Positions 9,855 through 12,432 of a stretch of 64,000 nucleotides of DNA are shown in pieces. Under the pieces are notes generated by a model. That model saw only the letters and a program-made list of their open reading frames with translations, searched no databases and was not told where the DNA came from. Both the position numbers and the translations under genes were made by a program. Each line of letters starts with the position of its first letter. Position 1 is the stretch's first letter. Source of the DNA: Escherichia phage vB_vPM_PD06; sequence record NC_052653.1. One strand, 5' to 3'.

Positions 9855-9929
9855 TGGTGCAGAGAGATGGTAACGATCCATCCTTTCTACCTTTTCAGGG
9901 TAGCACTAATCCGTCTCAGCTATCTCTGC
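9855..9929 (-). tRNA. tRNA-Phe (anticodon GAA)
   Basis: Acceptor GCAGAGA/TCTCTGC, anticodon arm CTACC-CTGAAAA-GGTAG, non-canonical T-loop ATCGTTA, CCA encoded. Confidence 0.65.
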
Positions 9930-10990: not shown

Positions 10991-11065
10991 GAGTTAAAAT
11001 TGGTGCTCCCACAAGGACTCGAACCCTGATAAGTTGCTTACAAGGCAACCGTAATAGCCGTTATA
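10991..11065 (-). tRNA. tRNA-Thr (anticodon TGT)
   Basis: Acceptor GCTCCTA/TGGGAGC, anticodon arm GTTGC-CTTGTAA-GCAAC, T-loop TTCGAGT, CCA encoded. Confidence 0.8.
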
Positions 11066-11071
11066 CGATAG

Positions 11072-11148
11072 GAGCAATACTTGGACTCGGCAGGATTCGA
11101 TACCTGCAATTCCAGAAGCCTCTTGGCGACTGGGGGTTTACCTTAACT
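11072..11148 (-). tRNA. tRNA-like element, identity undetermined
   Basis: Acceptor GGACTTG/CGAGTCC pairs well; T-arm-like GCAGG-TATCGAAT-CCTGC with 8-nt loop; no canonical anticodon arm found by hand; CCA not encoded. Confidence 0.3.
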
Positions 11149-11155
11149 CTACAAG

Positions 11156-11240
11156 TCCATAATTCTGGCGATGGATCAAGGATTTGAACCTTGCTAGAAC
11201 TTTCGTTCACGGATTAACAGTCCGTCGCCCAACCACTAGG
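11156..11240 (-). tRNA. tRNA with anticodon GTT (Asn-type) and long extra arm
   Basis: Acceptor GATGGAT/ATCCATC, anticodon arm ACGGA-CTGTTAA-TCCGT, 15-nt variable region containing hairpin GAAC-GAAA-GTTC, T-loop TTCAAAT, CCA encoded. Confidence 0.55.
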
Positions 11241-11247
11241 CCAATCC

Positions 11248-11334
11248 ATCTTTAATTTGGTGCAGGTAGTTGGACTCGAACCAACGAAGCCCCGAAGGGC
11301 AAGAGATTTACAGTCTCCAGCAATTGCCGCTATG
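11248..11334 (-). tRNA. tRNA-Tyr (anticodon GTA)
   Basis: Acceptor GTAGGTA/TACCTGC, anticodon arm GGAGA-CTGTAAA-TCTCT, long variable arm, T-loop TTCGAGT, CCA encoded. Confidence 0.8.
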
Positions 11335-11339
11335 CGATA

Positions 11340-11415
11340 CCTACGTGTTTGGTACATCGTGAAGGATTCGAACCTTCGACCTTGGAGTTAAAAGCACCTT
11401 GCTCTACCAACTAAG
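11340..11415 (-). tRNA. tRNA-Lys (anticodon TTT)
   Basis: Perfect acceptor ACATCGT/ACGATGT, D-arm GCTT-AGTTGGTA-GAGC, anticodon loop CTTTTAA (stem has two mismatches), T-arm GAAGG-TTCGAAT-CCTTC, CCA encoded. Confidence 0.6.
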
Positions 11416-11559
11416 CTAACGATGTATAAATTATCTTTAAAATAGCCAGTGTTTGCGGCACTTAGCTATGAAGTATTGGGGTATCGGTAAAGTGGTTACC
11501 GCCACTTGCCGAAAGTTTACTCTGCTAAAGTAAGATTACAAGCTACATTAAAGATAACT

Positions 11560-11975: not shown

Positions 11976-12057
11976 TTTGGTCGGGGTGACAGGATTCGAA
12001 CCTGCATACTCCAATTACTCGGTTAACGCCTGATTAGAAGTCAGGTGAGATACACCC
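11976..12057 (-). tRNA. Atypical tRNA-like gene, possibly Arg (TCT)
   Basis: Perfect acceptor CGGGGTG/CACCCCG, T-arm GCAGG-TTCGAAT-CCTGT, CCA encoded, hairpin CCTGA-CTTCTAA-TCAGG; no room for a normal D-arm. Confidence 0.4.
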
Positions 12058-12239
12058 CGTTTTCACAGTAACTATAACAAAAAACTAAGTGAATGTCAAG
12101 ATATTTTTACTAAAATTATTATTTAAATTGAAGCCTAGTTATGGAATCGAACCATATTTCGTATTTAGTTAGACAAAGCGGTCTAACATATTTTTCAGGC
12201 TTTGATGGCCTCGGAATTACCAAATACCCTACTAGGCGT

Positions 12240-12356: not shown

Positions 12357-12432
12357 TGGTGGTTCCCCAGGGTTACAATCCCTGCCCTCGACACTTATGA
12401 GGTGTGCGCTCTCGTCAGTGAGCTATGGAACC
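12357..12432 (-). tRNA. tRNA with CAT anticodon (Met or Ile2), non-canonical T-loop
   Basis: D-arm GCTC-ACTGACGA-GAGC, anticodon loop CTCATAA, T-arm CAGGG-ATTGTAA-CCCTG, acceptor GGTTCCA/GGGAACC, CCA encoded. Confidence 0.65.

What the first reader, a model, noticed from the sequence alone, without database searches (positions are those of the whole stretch)
11156..11240. tRNA with GUU (Asn) anticodon but a long extra arm
The gene folds with a perfect acceptor and a clean anticodon arm ACGGA-CTGTTAA-TCCGT, yet carries a 15-nt variable region forming its own hairpin (GAAC-GAAA-GTTC). Long extra arms are normally restricted to Leu, Ser and Tyr tRNAs, so charging identity is unclear.
Basis: seen in the sequence. 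Interest (0 to 1): 0.45.

Follow-up and report, generated by a model that had tools for sequence, protein, structure and literature searches.

The report
Phage asparagine tRNA with extra arm
This E. coli phage carries a real asparagine tRNA with an extra hairpin arm that normally only leucine, serine and tyrosine tRNAs have; hundreds of phages share it, bacteria almost never do, and it may help the tRNA escape host enzymes that cut tRNAs.

Summary
It is an 85-nt tRNA with anticodon GUU, an encoded CCA and a 15-nt variable region (GAAC-GAAA-GUUC + UAG). ARAGORN, Rfam (56.5 bits) and the free-energy fold give the same cloverleaf.

The window is a phi92-like E. coli myophage, and the gene is already annotated there as plain tRNA-Asn.

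- **Conservation.** The extra arm occurs in rV5-like, T5-like, T4-like and phiKZ-like phages and in more than 120 distinct metagenomic viral sequences. All four arm pairs covary.
- **Phage restriction.** The same pattern found 47 viral loci but only 4 real tRNAs in 185,579 bacterial and archaeal genomes, and no E. coli genome matches.
- **Charging.** The AsnRS determinants G34, U35, U36 and G73 are present. Across the family, the acceptor and discriminator signature matches ordinary Asn tRNAs, not Ser, Tyr or Leu. It is most likely a working Asn tRNA.
- **Role of the arm (inferred).** Its anticodon arm is nearly identical to the host's, including the PARIS/AriB cut site. The arm may therefore protect by shape. 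Experiments on phage Bas33 support this indirectly.

I found no paper that describes the feature. Interest is moderate to high.

The parts
11166..11250 (-). Whole tRNA-Asn(GUU) gene, 85 nt, with the 3' CCA encoded
   Evidence: ARAGORN; Rfam RF00005 56.5 bits; sequence; 100% identical in about 50 phi92-like phage records annotated tRNA-Asn (phi92 PHI92_t008)
11244..11250 (-). Acceptor stem, 5' strand GAUGGAU (nt 1-7); pairs with 11170-11176
   Evidence: all 7 pairs covary in alignment A2
11227..11241 (-). D arm GCCU-AGUGGUU-GGGC (G18 G19 present; the 13-22 pair is U.G), preceded by U8 G9
   Evidence: D-stem pairs 10-25, 11-24 and 12-23 are 100% paired in A2
11209..11225 (-). Anticodon arm ACGGA-CUGUUAA-UCCGU. 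The 16 nt CGGACUGUUAAUCCGU are identical to E. coli asnT, including U36AAUC|C41, the host tRNA-Asn site cut by PARIS AriB
   Evidence: E. coli asnT sequence; cleavage site from PMC12409363
11216..11218 (-). Anticodon GUU (G34 U35 U36), reads AAC/AAU; these bases are AsnRS identity determinants
   Evidence: identity rules
11194..11208 (-). Long variable region, 15 nt: stem GAAC/GUUC (11205-11208 with 11197-11200), GAAA tetraloop (11201-11204), unpaired tail UAG (11194-11196)
   Evidence: 4 of 4 stem pairs have compensatory changes and are 100% paired; the same layout recurs in 126 distinct viral sequences
11177..11193 (-). T arm CAAGG-UUCAAAU-CCUUG
11169..11169 (-). Discriminator G73, an AsnRS determinant and an antideterminant for LeuRS and TyrRS
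   Evidence: G73 in 115 of 126 family members
11001..11075 (-). Context: neighbouring tRNA-Thr(UGU), class I, with U39G at the AriB site (UAAGCA)
   Evidence: PMC12409363
11258..11344 (-). Context: tRNA-Tyr(GUA), class II, 7 nt upstream of the Asn gene in the same transcription direction
   Evidence: the same Tyr-Asn adjacency occurs in phAPEC8 and in L063
11350..11425 (-). Context: tRNA-Lys(UUU), class I, with substitutions at nt 39-41 (UAACUC against host UAAUCA)
   Evidence: PMC12409363

Best explanation
This is a genuine, expressed elongator tRNA of a phi92-like E. coli phage. It reads AAC/AAU and is charged with asparagine by the host AsnRS, but it is built on a class II (long variable arm) scaffold. 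It belongs to a large, almost exclusively phage-borne family of long-arm tRNA-Asn(GUU).

Proposed mechanism: the tRNA keeps what AsnRS and the ribosome read, namely G34-U35-U36, G73 and a host-identical anticodon arm. It adds a 3-4 bp hairpin, usually with a GAAA loop, that starts at nt 44, three nucleotides after the position where the PARIS nuclease AriB cuts host tRNA-Asn (40|41).

I infer that the arm changes the shape of the tRNA core, so that host tRNA-targeting defence nucleases that recognise shape no longer fit. The phage can then keep translating Asn codons when host tRNA-Asn is destroyed.

Shown here: existence of the gene, its fold, conservation, covariation, restriction to phages, and an Asn-type identity signature. 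Inferred: charging by AsnRS (about 0.8) and an anti-nuclease role for the arm (about 0.35).
For: **Real tRNA.** ARAGORN, Rfam and the free-energy fold agree.

**Purifying selection on the arm.**
- Homologues occur in Stephanstirmvirinae, Vequintavirinae, Demerecviridae, Straboviridae and Phikzvirus.
- Arm stems are swapped between them: GAAC/GUUC, GUUC/GAAC, GAGA/UCUC, GAGU/ACUC.
- In alignment A2, 4 of 4 arm pairs change on both sides and 100% of cells pair.
- 126 distinct long-arm Asn sequences were recovered from viral contigs.

**Phage restriction.**
- The same pattern gave 47 viral loci but 6 loci (4 real tRNAs) in 185,579 species genomes.
- All 4 lie on MAG contigs, and 3 of them sit inside dense tRNA arrays.
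- No E. coli genome matches the window tRNA.

**Asn identity.**
- G34, U35, U36 and G73 are present.
- The family signature is G73 91%, U1-A72 53% / G1-C72 45%, A3-U70 15%. Class I Asn tRNAs from the same loci show G73 98% and U1-A72 52% / G1-C72 45%.
- It does not match Ser (G2-C71 96%, A3-U70 86%), Tyr (A73 100%) or Leu (A73 99%).

**Defence link.**
- Host tRNA-Asn(GUU), Lys(UUU) and Thr(UGU) are AriB targets, cut at 40|41 (PMC12409363).
- In the window these three phage tRNAs, plus Tyr (the retron-Eco7 target, PMC11555353), lie within 425 bp.
- Lys and Thr carry substitutions at nt 39-41. Asn keeps the host site and has the arm instead.
- T5 shows the converse: a class I Asn with a mutated site.

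**Experimental hints from T5-like phage Bas33 (HildyBeyeler).**
- Bas33 has an 86-nt long-arm Asn and an 87-nt long-arm Thr(UGU) with an intact UAAUCA site.
- Supplying T5 tRNA-Lys alone rescues it from PARIS.
- Its Thr(UGU) gives strong rescue from the OLD tRNase, whereas T5's class I Thr rescues only partially (preprint 10.64898/2026.07.10.737580).

**Generality.** Long-arm versions of Lys, Thr, Gly, Cys, Trp and others exist in viral contigs, and each keeps its isotype-typical discriminator. Many synthetases therefore appear to tolerate the arm.
Against: - No aminoacylation, expression or cleavage data exist for this tRNA or for any long-arm Asn.
- The only long-arm Asn expressed in a published experiment (phage SP15, PMC11555353) was a negative control against PrrC170, which targets Lys.
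- The T5 tRNA-Asn that helps neutralise PARIS is class I, not long-arm.
- Host tRNA-Asn is only a minor AriB substrate, and T4 and T7 did not need extra tRNA-Asn for rescue. The Bas33 result therefore says more about Thr than about Asn.
- Bas34 needed exogenous T5 tRNA-Asn although it encodes its own. I could not establish which type its Asn is.
- AsnRS is a class IIb enzyme that approaches the tRNA from the variable-loop side (my own knowledge, by analogy with the AspRS complex). A clash with the arm cannot be excluded without modelling.
- Long arms also occur in Gly(UCC), for which I know of no anticodon-stem nuclease. The arm could therefore have a more general or a neutral cause.
- 36 of 159 loci carry both a long-arm and a class I Asn. 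That fits diversification but equally fits a different function for the long-arm copy.
Confidence: 0.72

Rival explanations
1. It is a functional Asn tRNA, but the arm is a tolerated relic with no adaptive role. It could come from a tandem copy of the neighbouring class II tRNA-Tyr that shifted anticodon (GUA to GUU) and discriminator (A73 to G73). It could also be a small hairpin insertion that spread among phages through tRNA-array exchange.
For: - Arm geometry resembles Tyr: a 3-4 bp stem and a 3-4 nt 3' tail in 100 of 115 long-arm Asn, against a 3-nt tail in 30 of 46 Tyr.
- The Asn gene lies directly beside Tyr in the window, in phAPEC8 and in L063.
- GUA and GUU differ by one base.
- Ser and Tyr are mildly enriched among nearest neighbours.
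- Long arms also turn up in isotypes with no known anticodon-stem nuclease, such as Gly.
Against: - The arm is kept by compensatory change across at least five phage lineages, and the GAAA loop is strongly conserved (51 of 115). That is hard to explain for a neutral appendage in a compact genome.
- The acceptor and discriminator signature is Asn-like, not Tyr-like. Class I Asn is the most enriched nearest neighbour (31 of 126 against a 3% background).
- Cellular genomes almost never have it, which argues for a phage-specific selective pressure.
Confidence: 0.3
2. It is an identity-switched class II tRNA charged by SerRS (or TyrRS or LeuRS). It would then insert the wrong amino acid at Asn codons, as deliberate mistranslation or recoding, in the manner of allo-tRNAs and anticodon-mutant tRNA-Ser.
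For: - SerRS ignores the anticodon and reads the long arm plus G73 (PMC9976931), and this tRNA has both.
- GCU (Ser) to GUU is a single base change.
- The phage's own tRNA-Ser(GCU) also has only a 4-bp arm with a GAAA loop and G73.
- Many loci carry a second, ordinary Asn tRNA.
Against: - The window tRNA has A2-U71 and U3-A70, whereas 96% and 86% of co-resident phage Ser tRNAs have G2-C71 and A3-U70.
- Across the family only 40% have G2-C71 and 15% have A3-U70, the same as class I Asn.
- The arm register differs from Ser: a 3-4 nt 3' tail against 0-2 nt, and 3-4 bp against 5 bp or more.
- A73, needed by TyrRS and LeuRS, occurs in 1 of 126 sequences.
- All AsnRS determinants are conserved.
- This is the only Asn tRNA in the phage array, so it would compete with host tRNA-Asn at every AAY codon.
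Confidence: 0.05
3. It does not mainly decode. It acts as a decoy or competitive inhibitor that binds and blocks a host tRNA nuclease or another tRNA-binding defence protein, presenting the host-identical anticodon arm on an uncleavable scaffold.
For: - The 16-nt core of the anticodon arm is identical to host tRNA-Asn.
- The AriB paper raises the possibility that overexpressed viral tRNAs inhibit AriB by competition.
- Co-occurrence with a class I Asn in 36 of 159 loci.
Against: - The acceptor stem, G73, encoded CCA, T loop and D loop are all conserved as in a tRNA that is charged and used on the ribosome.
- It is the only Asn tRNA in this phage's array.
- There is no direct evidence for inhibition.
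Confidence: 0.07

Closest known systems
E. coli tRNA-Asn(GUU) (asnT/U/V/W), class I
   Same: Same anticodon, same anticodon loop CUGUUAA, same 3' strand of the anticodon stem UCCGU and same discriminator G73. The 16 nt CGGACUGUUAAUCCGU are identical.
   Different: The host tRNA is 76 nt with a 5-nt variable loop (AUGUC), U1-A72 and a 4-bp D stem with A9. The phage tRNA is 85 nt with a 15-nt structured arm, G1-C72 and G9. Outside the anticodon arm, BLAST detects no similarity.
Bacterial class II tRNAs (tRNA-Tyr, tRNA-Ser, tRNA-Leu)
   Same: A long variable region that forms a hairpin. Arm length (median 15 nt), 3-4 bp stem and 3-4 nt 3' tail are closest to phage and bacterial tRNA-Tyr. U8 G9 and the D arms of several family members look like class II.
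   Different: The anticodon is GUU. The discriminator is G, not the A73 of Tyr and Leu. It lacks the Ser acceptor signature G2-C71/A3-U70, and its arm is shorter than Ser arms.
Phage T5 tRNA-Asn(GUU), which with T5 tRNA-Lys and tRNA-Thr neutralises the PARIS defence system (PMC12409363)
   Same: A phage-encoded isoacceptor of a host tRNA that AriB cuts, located in a tRNA array alongside Lys(UUU) and Thr(UGU).
   Different: T5's tRNA is 78 nt and class I, with a diverged anticodon stem (GCAUC/GUUGA; UAAGUU at the cut site). The window tRNA keeps the host site and has the extra arm instead. Most other T5-like phages carry the long-arm type.
Long-arm tRNA-Thr(UGU) of T5-like phage Bas33 (HildyBeyeler)
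   Same: A class I isotype rebuilt with a structured 15-nt variable arm while the host-like AriB site UAAUCA stays intact. It occurs in about 100 T5-like phages. Published experiments with the Bas33 Thr(UGU) tRNA show that it works in E. coli and resists the OLD tRNase. Those authors do not mention the arm.
   Different: A different isotype and a different phage family. No equivalent experiment exists for any long-arm Asn.
Allo-tRNAs and other identity-switched class II tRNAs (Mukai et al. 2017, PMC5389517; reviewed in PMC7609411)
   Same: A long variable arm combined with an anticodon that does not belong to Leu, Ser or Tyr.
   Different: Allo-tRNAs have 8/4 or 9/3 acceptor/T-stem geometry and Ser or Ala identity elements. 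This tRNA has the canonical 7/5 geometry and carries Asn determinants.

Membership tests
tRNA (Rfam RF00005) | Score at or above the curated gathering threshold of the covariance model | tested here: met
   56.5 bits against 29, E 1.7e-9, model positions 1-71 fully matched
tRNA (Rfam RF00005) | Cloverleaf with a 7-bp acceptor stem, 5-bp anticodon stem, 7-nt loop with U33 and purine 37, 5-bp T stem, T loop UUCRANY and G18 G19 in the D loop | tested here: met
   Sequence; free-energy fold; 99.4% of pair cells are standard pairs in 14 homologues
tRNA-Asn (substrate of bacterial AsnRS) | Anticodon G34 U35 U36 | tested here: met
   determinants as reviewed in PMC9976931
tRNA-Asn (substrate of bacterial AsnRS) | Discriminator G73 | tested here: met
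   G at 11169; G73 in 115 of 126 long-arm family members and 43 of 44 class I Asn tRNAs from the same loci
tRNA-Asn (substrate of bacterial AsnRS) | Class I architecture, with a variable loop of 4-5 nt | tested here: not met
   The variable region is 15 nt and forms a 4-bp hairpin
tRNA-Asn (substrate of bacterial AsnRS) | Charged with asparagine by AsnRS | not testable with these tools
   Needs in vitro aminoacylation or analysis of the charged species in vivo
tRNA-Ser (substrate of bacterial SerRS) | Long variable arm and G73 | tested here: met
   rules
tRNA-Ser (substrate of bacterial SerRS) | G1-C72, G2-C71 and (A/U)3-(U/A)70 in the acceptor stem (G2-C71 is conserved in bacterial tRNA-Ser) | tested here: not met
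   The window tRNA has G1-C72 but A2-U71 and U3-A70. Co-resident phage Ser tRNAs have G2-C71 in 78 of 81 and A3-U70 in 70 of 81
tRNA-Ser (substrate of bacterial SerRS) | Ser-type arm geometry: a longer stem and 0-2 unpaired nt on the 3' side | tested here: not met
   Here a 4-bp stem and a 3-nt tail. Ser has 5 bp or more in 59 of 81 and a 0-2 nt tail in 73 of 80. Caveat: this phage's own Ser(GCU) has only a 4-bp arm
tRNA-Tyr / tRNA-Leu (bacterial class II) | Discriminator A73 | tested here: not met
   G73 here. Phage Tyr tRNAs have A73 in 59 of 59 and Leu in 68 of 69. G73 is an antideterminant for LeuRS and TyrRS
Allo-tRNA / tRNA-Sec type | Acceptor/T-stem geometry 8/4, 9/3, 8/5 or 9/4 | tested here: not met
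   Canonical 7/5 geometry
Phage tRNAs that evade host tRNA nucleases (van den Berg 2023; Burman 2024; PMC12409363) | Phage-encoded isoacceptor of a host tRNA that a defence nuclease cleaves | tested here: met
   Host tRNA-Asn(GUU) is an AriB target. The gene lies in a phage tRNA array next to Thr(UGU), Tyr and Lys(UUU)
Phage tRNAs that evade host tRNA nucleases (van den Berg 2023; Burman 2024; PMC12409363) | Substitutions in the anticodon loop or stem at or near the cleavage site | tested here: not met
   U36AAUCC41 and the whole 16-nt core are identical to E. coli asnT. By contrast the window Lys and Thr, and T5 Asn, are substituted
Phage tRNAs that evade host tRNA nucleases (van den Berg 2023; Burman 2024; PMC12409363) | Demonstrated resistance to cleavage, or rescue of infection | not testable with these tools
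   Only indirect evidence from Bas33

The most novel reading that the evidence does not exclude
Adding a long variable arm to tRNAs that are normally class I (Asn most often, but also Thr, Lys, Gly, Cys, Trp and others) is a general, so far unrecognised counter-defence strategy of phages. The arm would make the tRNA core sterically incompatible with host tRNA-targeting nucleases such as the TOPRIM tRNases AriB and OLD. The elements read by the cognate synthetase and the ribosome stay untouched. This would be an alternative to the known route of mutating the cleavage site.
Probability: 0.3. Interest if true: 0.8.

Novelty: new variant of a known kind. Interest (0 to 1): 0.6.

Why it matters
Textbooks and current reviews state that in bacteria long variable arms are confined to Leu, Ser and Tyr tRNAs (plus Sec), and that the arm is itself an identity element. 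A large phage-borne family of Asn tRNAs with such an arm shows that the rule does not hold in the virosphere, and similar Thr, Lys and Gly tRNAs point the same way. It also suggests that AsnRS and several other synthetases tolerate the arm.

If the arm protects against tRNA-cleaving defence systems, it would be a second, shape-based escape route alongside cleavage-site mutation. That could explain why some T5-like phages behave differently from T5 against PARIS and OLD.

There are practical consequences too:
- Such tRNAs are natural scaffolds that are orthogonal in shape but still charged by host enzymes, which is of interest for tRNA engineering.
- Isotype-specific annotation models may mis-score them.

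The idea is directly testable with reagents already in use: AriB and OLD assays and BASEL phages.

Tried and rejected
ARAGORN, Rfam and unconstrained folding all give the GUU cloverleaf with the extra hairpin. Rejected.
2. **Host or prophage origin.** blastn of the tRNA against 5,426 complete E. coli genomes found nothing even at E = 10.
3. **Using the T5 PARIS-rescue experiment as direct functional evidence.** Rejected after reading T5 itself: its tRNA-Asn is 78 nt and class I. The experiment applies to the isotype, not to the long-arm form.
4. **Tracing the evolutionary origin.** I used nearest neighbours with the arm removed and the anticodon masked. The result was inconclusive. Class I Asn is the most enriched, Ser, Tyr and Lys less so, and the window tRNA has no clear neighbour. 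The family may be polyphyletic.
5. **Identifying the genome of phage Bas34 to learn its Asn type.** Accession guesses failed, and the paper's supplements are not held.
6. **Comparing abundance across isotypes.** Only the ratio of true tRNAs to non-tRNA matches can be compared, and that is rough.
7. **Literature.** Nine searches and eleven papers read. None mentions a long variable arm in a phage tRNA-Asn. The library lacks most subscription journals, including the 1980s T5/BF23 tRNA sequencing papers, so an earlier description cannot be excluded.
8. **Levitt pair.** I looked by eye for a 15-48 correlation with the last tail nucleotide. It holds in many members (G15 with C, A15 with U) but not in the window clade (G15 with G). 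I did not pursue it.
Full report
**1. What is there**

The finding points at 11156-11240. The gene is in fact at 11166-11250 on the minus strand, so the stated interval is shifted by exactly 10 nt and misses the first 10 bases of the tRNA.

The RNA reads GAUGGAU UG GCCU AGUGGUU GGGC G ACGGA CUGUUAA UCCGU GAACGAAAGUUCUAG CAAGG UUCAAAU CCUUG AUCCAUC G CCA. It is 85 nt with the CCA encoded.

- ARAGORN calls it tRNA-Asn(gtt).
- Rfam's tRNA model scores 56.5 bits against a threshold of 29. It treats 12 bases of the variable region as an insertion, with high posterior probability.
- The unconstrained minimum-free-energy structure is the cloverleaf plus a fifth hairpin, GAAC-GAAA-GUUC (z = -2.57).
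- Nothing produced a competing fold with a short variable loop or a different anticodon.

**2. Where it comes from**

The 3.2 kb around the gene are 97-99% identical to phi92-like E. coli myophages (Justusliebigvirus, Stephanstirmvirinae).

The gene lies in a minus-strand array of 15 ARAGORN tRNAs plus one Rfam-only tRNA-like element. In phi92 it has been annotated as plain tRNA-Asn, PHI92_t008. About 50 phage records carry the identical 85 nt. No complete E. coli genome contains anything similar.

**3. The arm is conserved and covaries**

Divergent full-length homologues with a long arm occur in several phage groups.

| Phage group | Examples |
|---|---|
| Other Stephanstirmvirinae | Klebsiella KP13-26, Citrobacter Tr1, phAPEC8, ESCO13 |
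| Vequintavirinae | Salmonella SSE121, NINP13076 |
| Demerecviridae | Lindwurm, Proteus Stubb, Providencia PSTCR5 |
| Many more T5-like phages | 693 records match the T5-like form |
| Straboviridae | Serratia X20, Morganella Mm5, Klebsiella Roth16, Erwinia IT22 |
| Phikzvirus | one Pseudomonas phage |

The arm stems differ by compensatory exchanges: GAAC/GUUC, GUUC/GAAC, GAGA/UCUC, GAGG/CCUC, GAGU/ACUC and GUC/GAC.

On a 14-sequence alignment:
- all four arm pairs show changes on both sides and every cell is paired;
- the whole structure is 99.4% paired against 71% in shuffles (0 of 500 reach it);
- it is 32-48% paired when partners are slid by 1-3 columns.

**4. It is a large, phage-restricted family**

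I scanned for TGTTAAKCYRTG, then 12-22 nt, then GGTTCRAATCC.
- The viral collection gave 47 loci.
- One genome for each of 185,579 bacterial and archaeal species gave only 6 loci.
- Four of those six are real long-arm Asn tRNAs. All four lie on MAG contigs, and three sit inside dense, phage-like tRNA arrays.

After ARAGORN filtering there are 126 distinct long-arm tRNA-Asn(GUU) sequences of 79-94 nt. Their acceptor and anticodon stems are very diverse, and many come from 100-400 kb contigs.

The arm has a consistent layout:
- it starts at nt 44 or after one unpaired base;
- its stem is 3-4 bp in 97 of 126 sequences;
- its loop is most often GAAA (51 of 115);
- its 3' tail is 3-4 nt in 100 of 115.

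Thirty-six of 159 loci also carry an ordinary class I tRNA-Asn(GUU).

**5. Which amino acid?**

E. coli AsnRS relies on the three anticodon bases and on G73 (Li, Pelka and Schulman 1993, as reviewed in PMC9976931). All four are present here.

For the three class II synthetases, the rules are:
- LeuRS and TyrRS need A73, and G73 acts against them;
- SerRS uses the arm and G73, reinforced by the acceptor stem, where G1-C72 and G2-C71 are conserved in bacterial tRNA-Ser.

I compared distinct tRNAs taken from the same viral loci.

| tRNA class | n | Discriminator | Acceptor stem | Variable arm |
|---|---|---|---|---|
| Long-arm Asn | 126 | G73 91% | U1-A72 53% / G1-C72 45%; G2-C71 40%; A3-U70 15% | stem 3-4 bp; 3' tail 3-4 nt |
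| Class I Asn | 44 | G73 98% | U1-A72 52% / G1-C72 45% | 4-5 nt loop |
| Ser | 81 | G73 68% | G2-C71 96%; A3-U70 86% | stem mostly 5 bp or more; 3' tail 0-2 nt |
| Tyr | 59 | A73 100% | G1-C72 80% | mostly 3-bp stem; 3' tail mostly 3 nt |
| Leu | 69 | A73 99% | not distinctive | 3' tail 1-2 nt |

Long-arm Asn is practically the same as class I Asn in its acceptor and discriminator signature. The window tRNA itself has A2-U71 and U3-A70.

The sequence evidence therefore favours Asn identity, with an arm whose geometry resembles that of Tyr. Charging has not been measured for any member.

A caveat from my own knowledge: AsnRS is a class IIb enzyme, and its relatives approach the tRNA from the variable-loop side. 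Steric compatibility therefore needs testing. Long-arm Lys and Asp tRNAs, which are also class IIb substrates, exist in the same loci, which suggests the arm is tolerated.

**6. What the arm might do**

Recent work shows that tRNAs are frequent targets of anti-phage systems and that phage tRNAs can restore translation.
[quoted passage not shown] Co-expressing the T5 versions of these three tRNAs neutralises PARIS (PMC12409363).
- Retron-Eco7 targets tRNA-Tyr (PMC11555353).
- P2 OLD degrades tRNA-Thr(UGU) among others (preprint 10.64898/2026.07.10.737580).

In the window, Thr(UGU), Asn, Tyr and Lys(UUU) lie side by side at 11001-11425. The sequences around the AriB site compare as follows.

| tRNA | Class | nt 36-41 | Compared with host |
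|---|---|---|---|
| Window Lys(UUU) | I | UAACUC | substituted (host UAAUCA) |
| Window Thr(UGU) | I | UAAGCA | substituted (host UAAUCA) |
| Window Asn(GUU) | long arm | UAAUCC | identical to host (16-nt core identical) |
| T5 Asn(GUU) | I, 78 nt | UAAGUU | substituted |
| Bas33 Thr(UGU) | long arm, 87 nt | UAAUCA | identical to host |
| Bas33 Asn(GUU) | long arm, 86 nt | UAAUCC | identical to host |

Bas33 (HildyBeyeler) is a T5-like phage. About 100 T5-like phages share its long-arm Thr(UGU).

Two published observations, made without reference to the arm, fit a protective role:
- Bas33 is rescued from PARIS by T5 tRNA-Lys alone, so its own Thr and Asn suffice. T5Mos, which has a class I Thr, needed all three tRNAs.
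- Bas33 Thr(UGU) gives strong rescue from OLD, whereas T5's Thr gives only partial rescue.

The arm leaves the helix three nucleotides after the AriB scissile bond. The AlphaFold 3 model in that paper has the AriB dimer spanning from nt 40/41 to D-loop nt 16/17. An arm between those contacts could plausibly block binding.

This step is inference, and several points count against it:
- Asn is only a minor AriB target.
- T4 and T7 needed no extra tRNA-Asn.
- Bas34 needed exogenous T5 tRNA-Asn although it has its own, of a type I could not determine.
- T4's class I Thr also rescues well from OLD.

**7. A wider pattern**

The same viral loci contain long-arm versions of Lys, Thr, Cys, Trp, Ile, Met, Glu, Asp and His tRNAs. 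Each keeps the discriminator typical of its isotype: A for Lys, U for Cys, G for Trp, C for His, G for Asp.

I ran scans of identical design for other anticodon loops and classified the matches with ARAGORN.

| Anticodon | True long tRNAs of that isotype | Non-tRNA matches | Ratio |
|---|---|---|---|
| Asn(GUU) | 137 | 14 | 9.8 |
| Thr(UGU) | 81 | 38 | 2.1 |
| Lys(UUU) | 74 | 49 | 1.5 |
| Gly(UCC) | 53 | 64 | 0.83 |
| Phe(GAA) | 6 | 45 | 0.13 |

In the Phe scan, 67 further matches were Ser(UGA) tRNAs, and two were Met.

They suggest that long arms on class I isotypes are common in phages and that Asn is the most enriched of those tested.

**8. Comparison with what is known, and novelty**

The gene is known only in the sense that databases annotate it as tRNA-Asn.

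Current reviews of tRNA identity and of non-canonical tRNAs restrict long arms to Leu, Ser, Tyr and Sec, and list no class II Asn. The recent papers on phage tRNAs and defence do not mention a variable arm. None of my searches found a description. The searchable library lacks most subscription journals, so an older note cannot be excluded.

The tRNA differs from allo-tRNAs in having 7/5 rather than 8/4 or 9/3 geometry, and Asn rather than Ser or Ala determinants. It differs from the known evasion-by-mutation tRNAs because its cleavage site is unmutated.

I classify it as a new variant of a known kind: a tRNA-Asn on a class II scaffold.

**9. Verdict**

- Best explanation: a functional, phage-specific class II-shaped tRNA-Asn, confidence about 0.72. 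An anti-nuclease role for the arm has a probability of about 0.3-0.35.
- Interest is 0.6, rising to about 0.8 if the shield mechanism is shown.

Noticed in passing
window 11981-12059 (-): A tRNA-like element that only Rfam finds (40 bits; ARAGORN does not call it, and phi92 leaves it unannotated). It has a normal acceptor stem and T arm and an anticodon arm CCUGA-CUUCUAA-UCAGG (Arg UCU). The D arm is replaced by 4 nt, and a 20-nt insertion sits in the variable region. A strong promoter-like site (TTGACA-17-TATAGT, 11 of 12, with TG) lies just upstream at 12099-12071 on the same strand.
   Followed up: partly
window 11350-11425 (-) and 11001-11075 (-): [quoted passage not shown] These are the positions where mutations abolish cleavage by the PARIS nuclease AriB. 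The Lys anticodon stem also appears to have 27-43 and 30-40 mismatches.
   Followed up: partly
L180 6001-6087 (Escherichia phage HildyBeyeler = Bas33); about 100 T5-like phage records: An 87-nt tRNA-Thr(UGU) with a structured 15-nt variable arm (A-GGA-GUAA-UCC-CGUU) and an intact host-type AriB site UAAUCA. Published rescue experiments used this tRNA without noting the arm.
   Followed up: partly
Viral loci L058, L082, L083, L120, L124 and others; scans L183-L655: Long-variable-arm versions of many class I isotypes (Lys, Thr, Gly, Cys, Trp, Ile, Met, Glu, Asp, His) occur in uncultivated phage tRNA arrays, each with its isotype-typical discriminator base. Long-arm Phe(GAA) is rare.
   Followed up: partly
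L058 7259-7952 (MAG contig JALVDN010000438.1, Flavobacteriales): An 11-kb contig binned as bacterial has 21 tRNAs and two overlapping tmRNA calls within 4 kb, including a long-arm and an ordinary tRNA-Asn. It looks like a phage or mobile tRNA array rather than chromosomal DNA.
   Followed up: no
window 9855-9929 (-) and 12357-12432 (-): Two of the phage tRNAs have T loops that depart from UUCRANY: Phe(GAA) has GAUGG-AUCGUUA-CCAUC and the second Met(CAU) has CAGGG-AUUGUAA-CCCUG. phi92 flags its Phe and Ser(UGA) genes as pseudo. The Met(CAU) position appears to correspond to the 'hypothetical tRNA' in the phi92 annotation.
   Followed up: no
Records MG065639, MG065645, MG065656, MG065689: Four records named 'Campylobacter phage', with host given as C. 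jejuni, are 97% identical over this tRNA array to phi92-like E. coli phages and carry the identical tRNA-Asn. The host assignment looks doubtful.
   Followed up: no
L064 (phage T5) 17618-18052 and misc_RNA features: The T5 annotation lists several 'tRNA-like stable RNAs with unknown functions' within its tRNA region, and a CDS named tRNA amidotransferase (T5.081). Its notes record which T5 tRNAs become amber suppressors after anticodon replacement. Asn does not, which fits an anticodon-dependent identity.
   Followed up: no
window 1-64000: GC skew changes sign near 16 kb and near 52 kb (negative, then positive, then negative). This fits three blocks of opposite transcription direction, and the tRNA array lies in the first, minus-strand block.
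   Followed up: no
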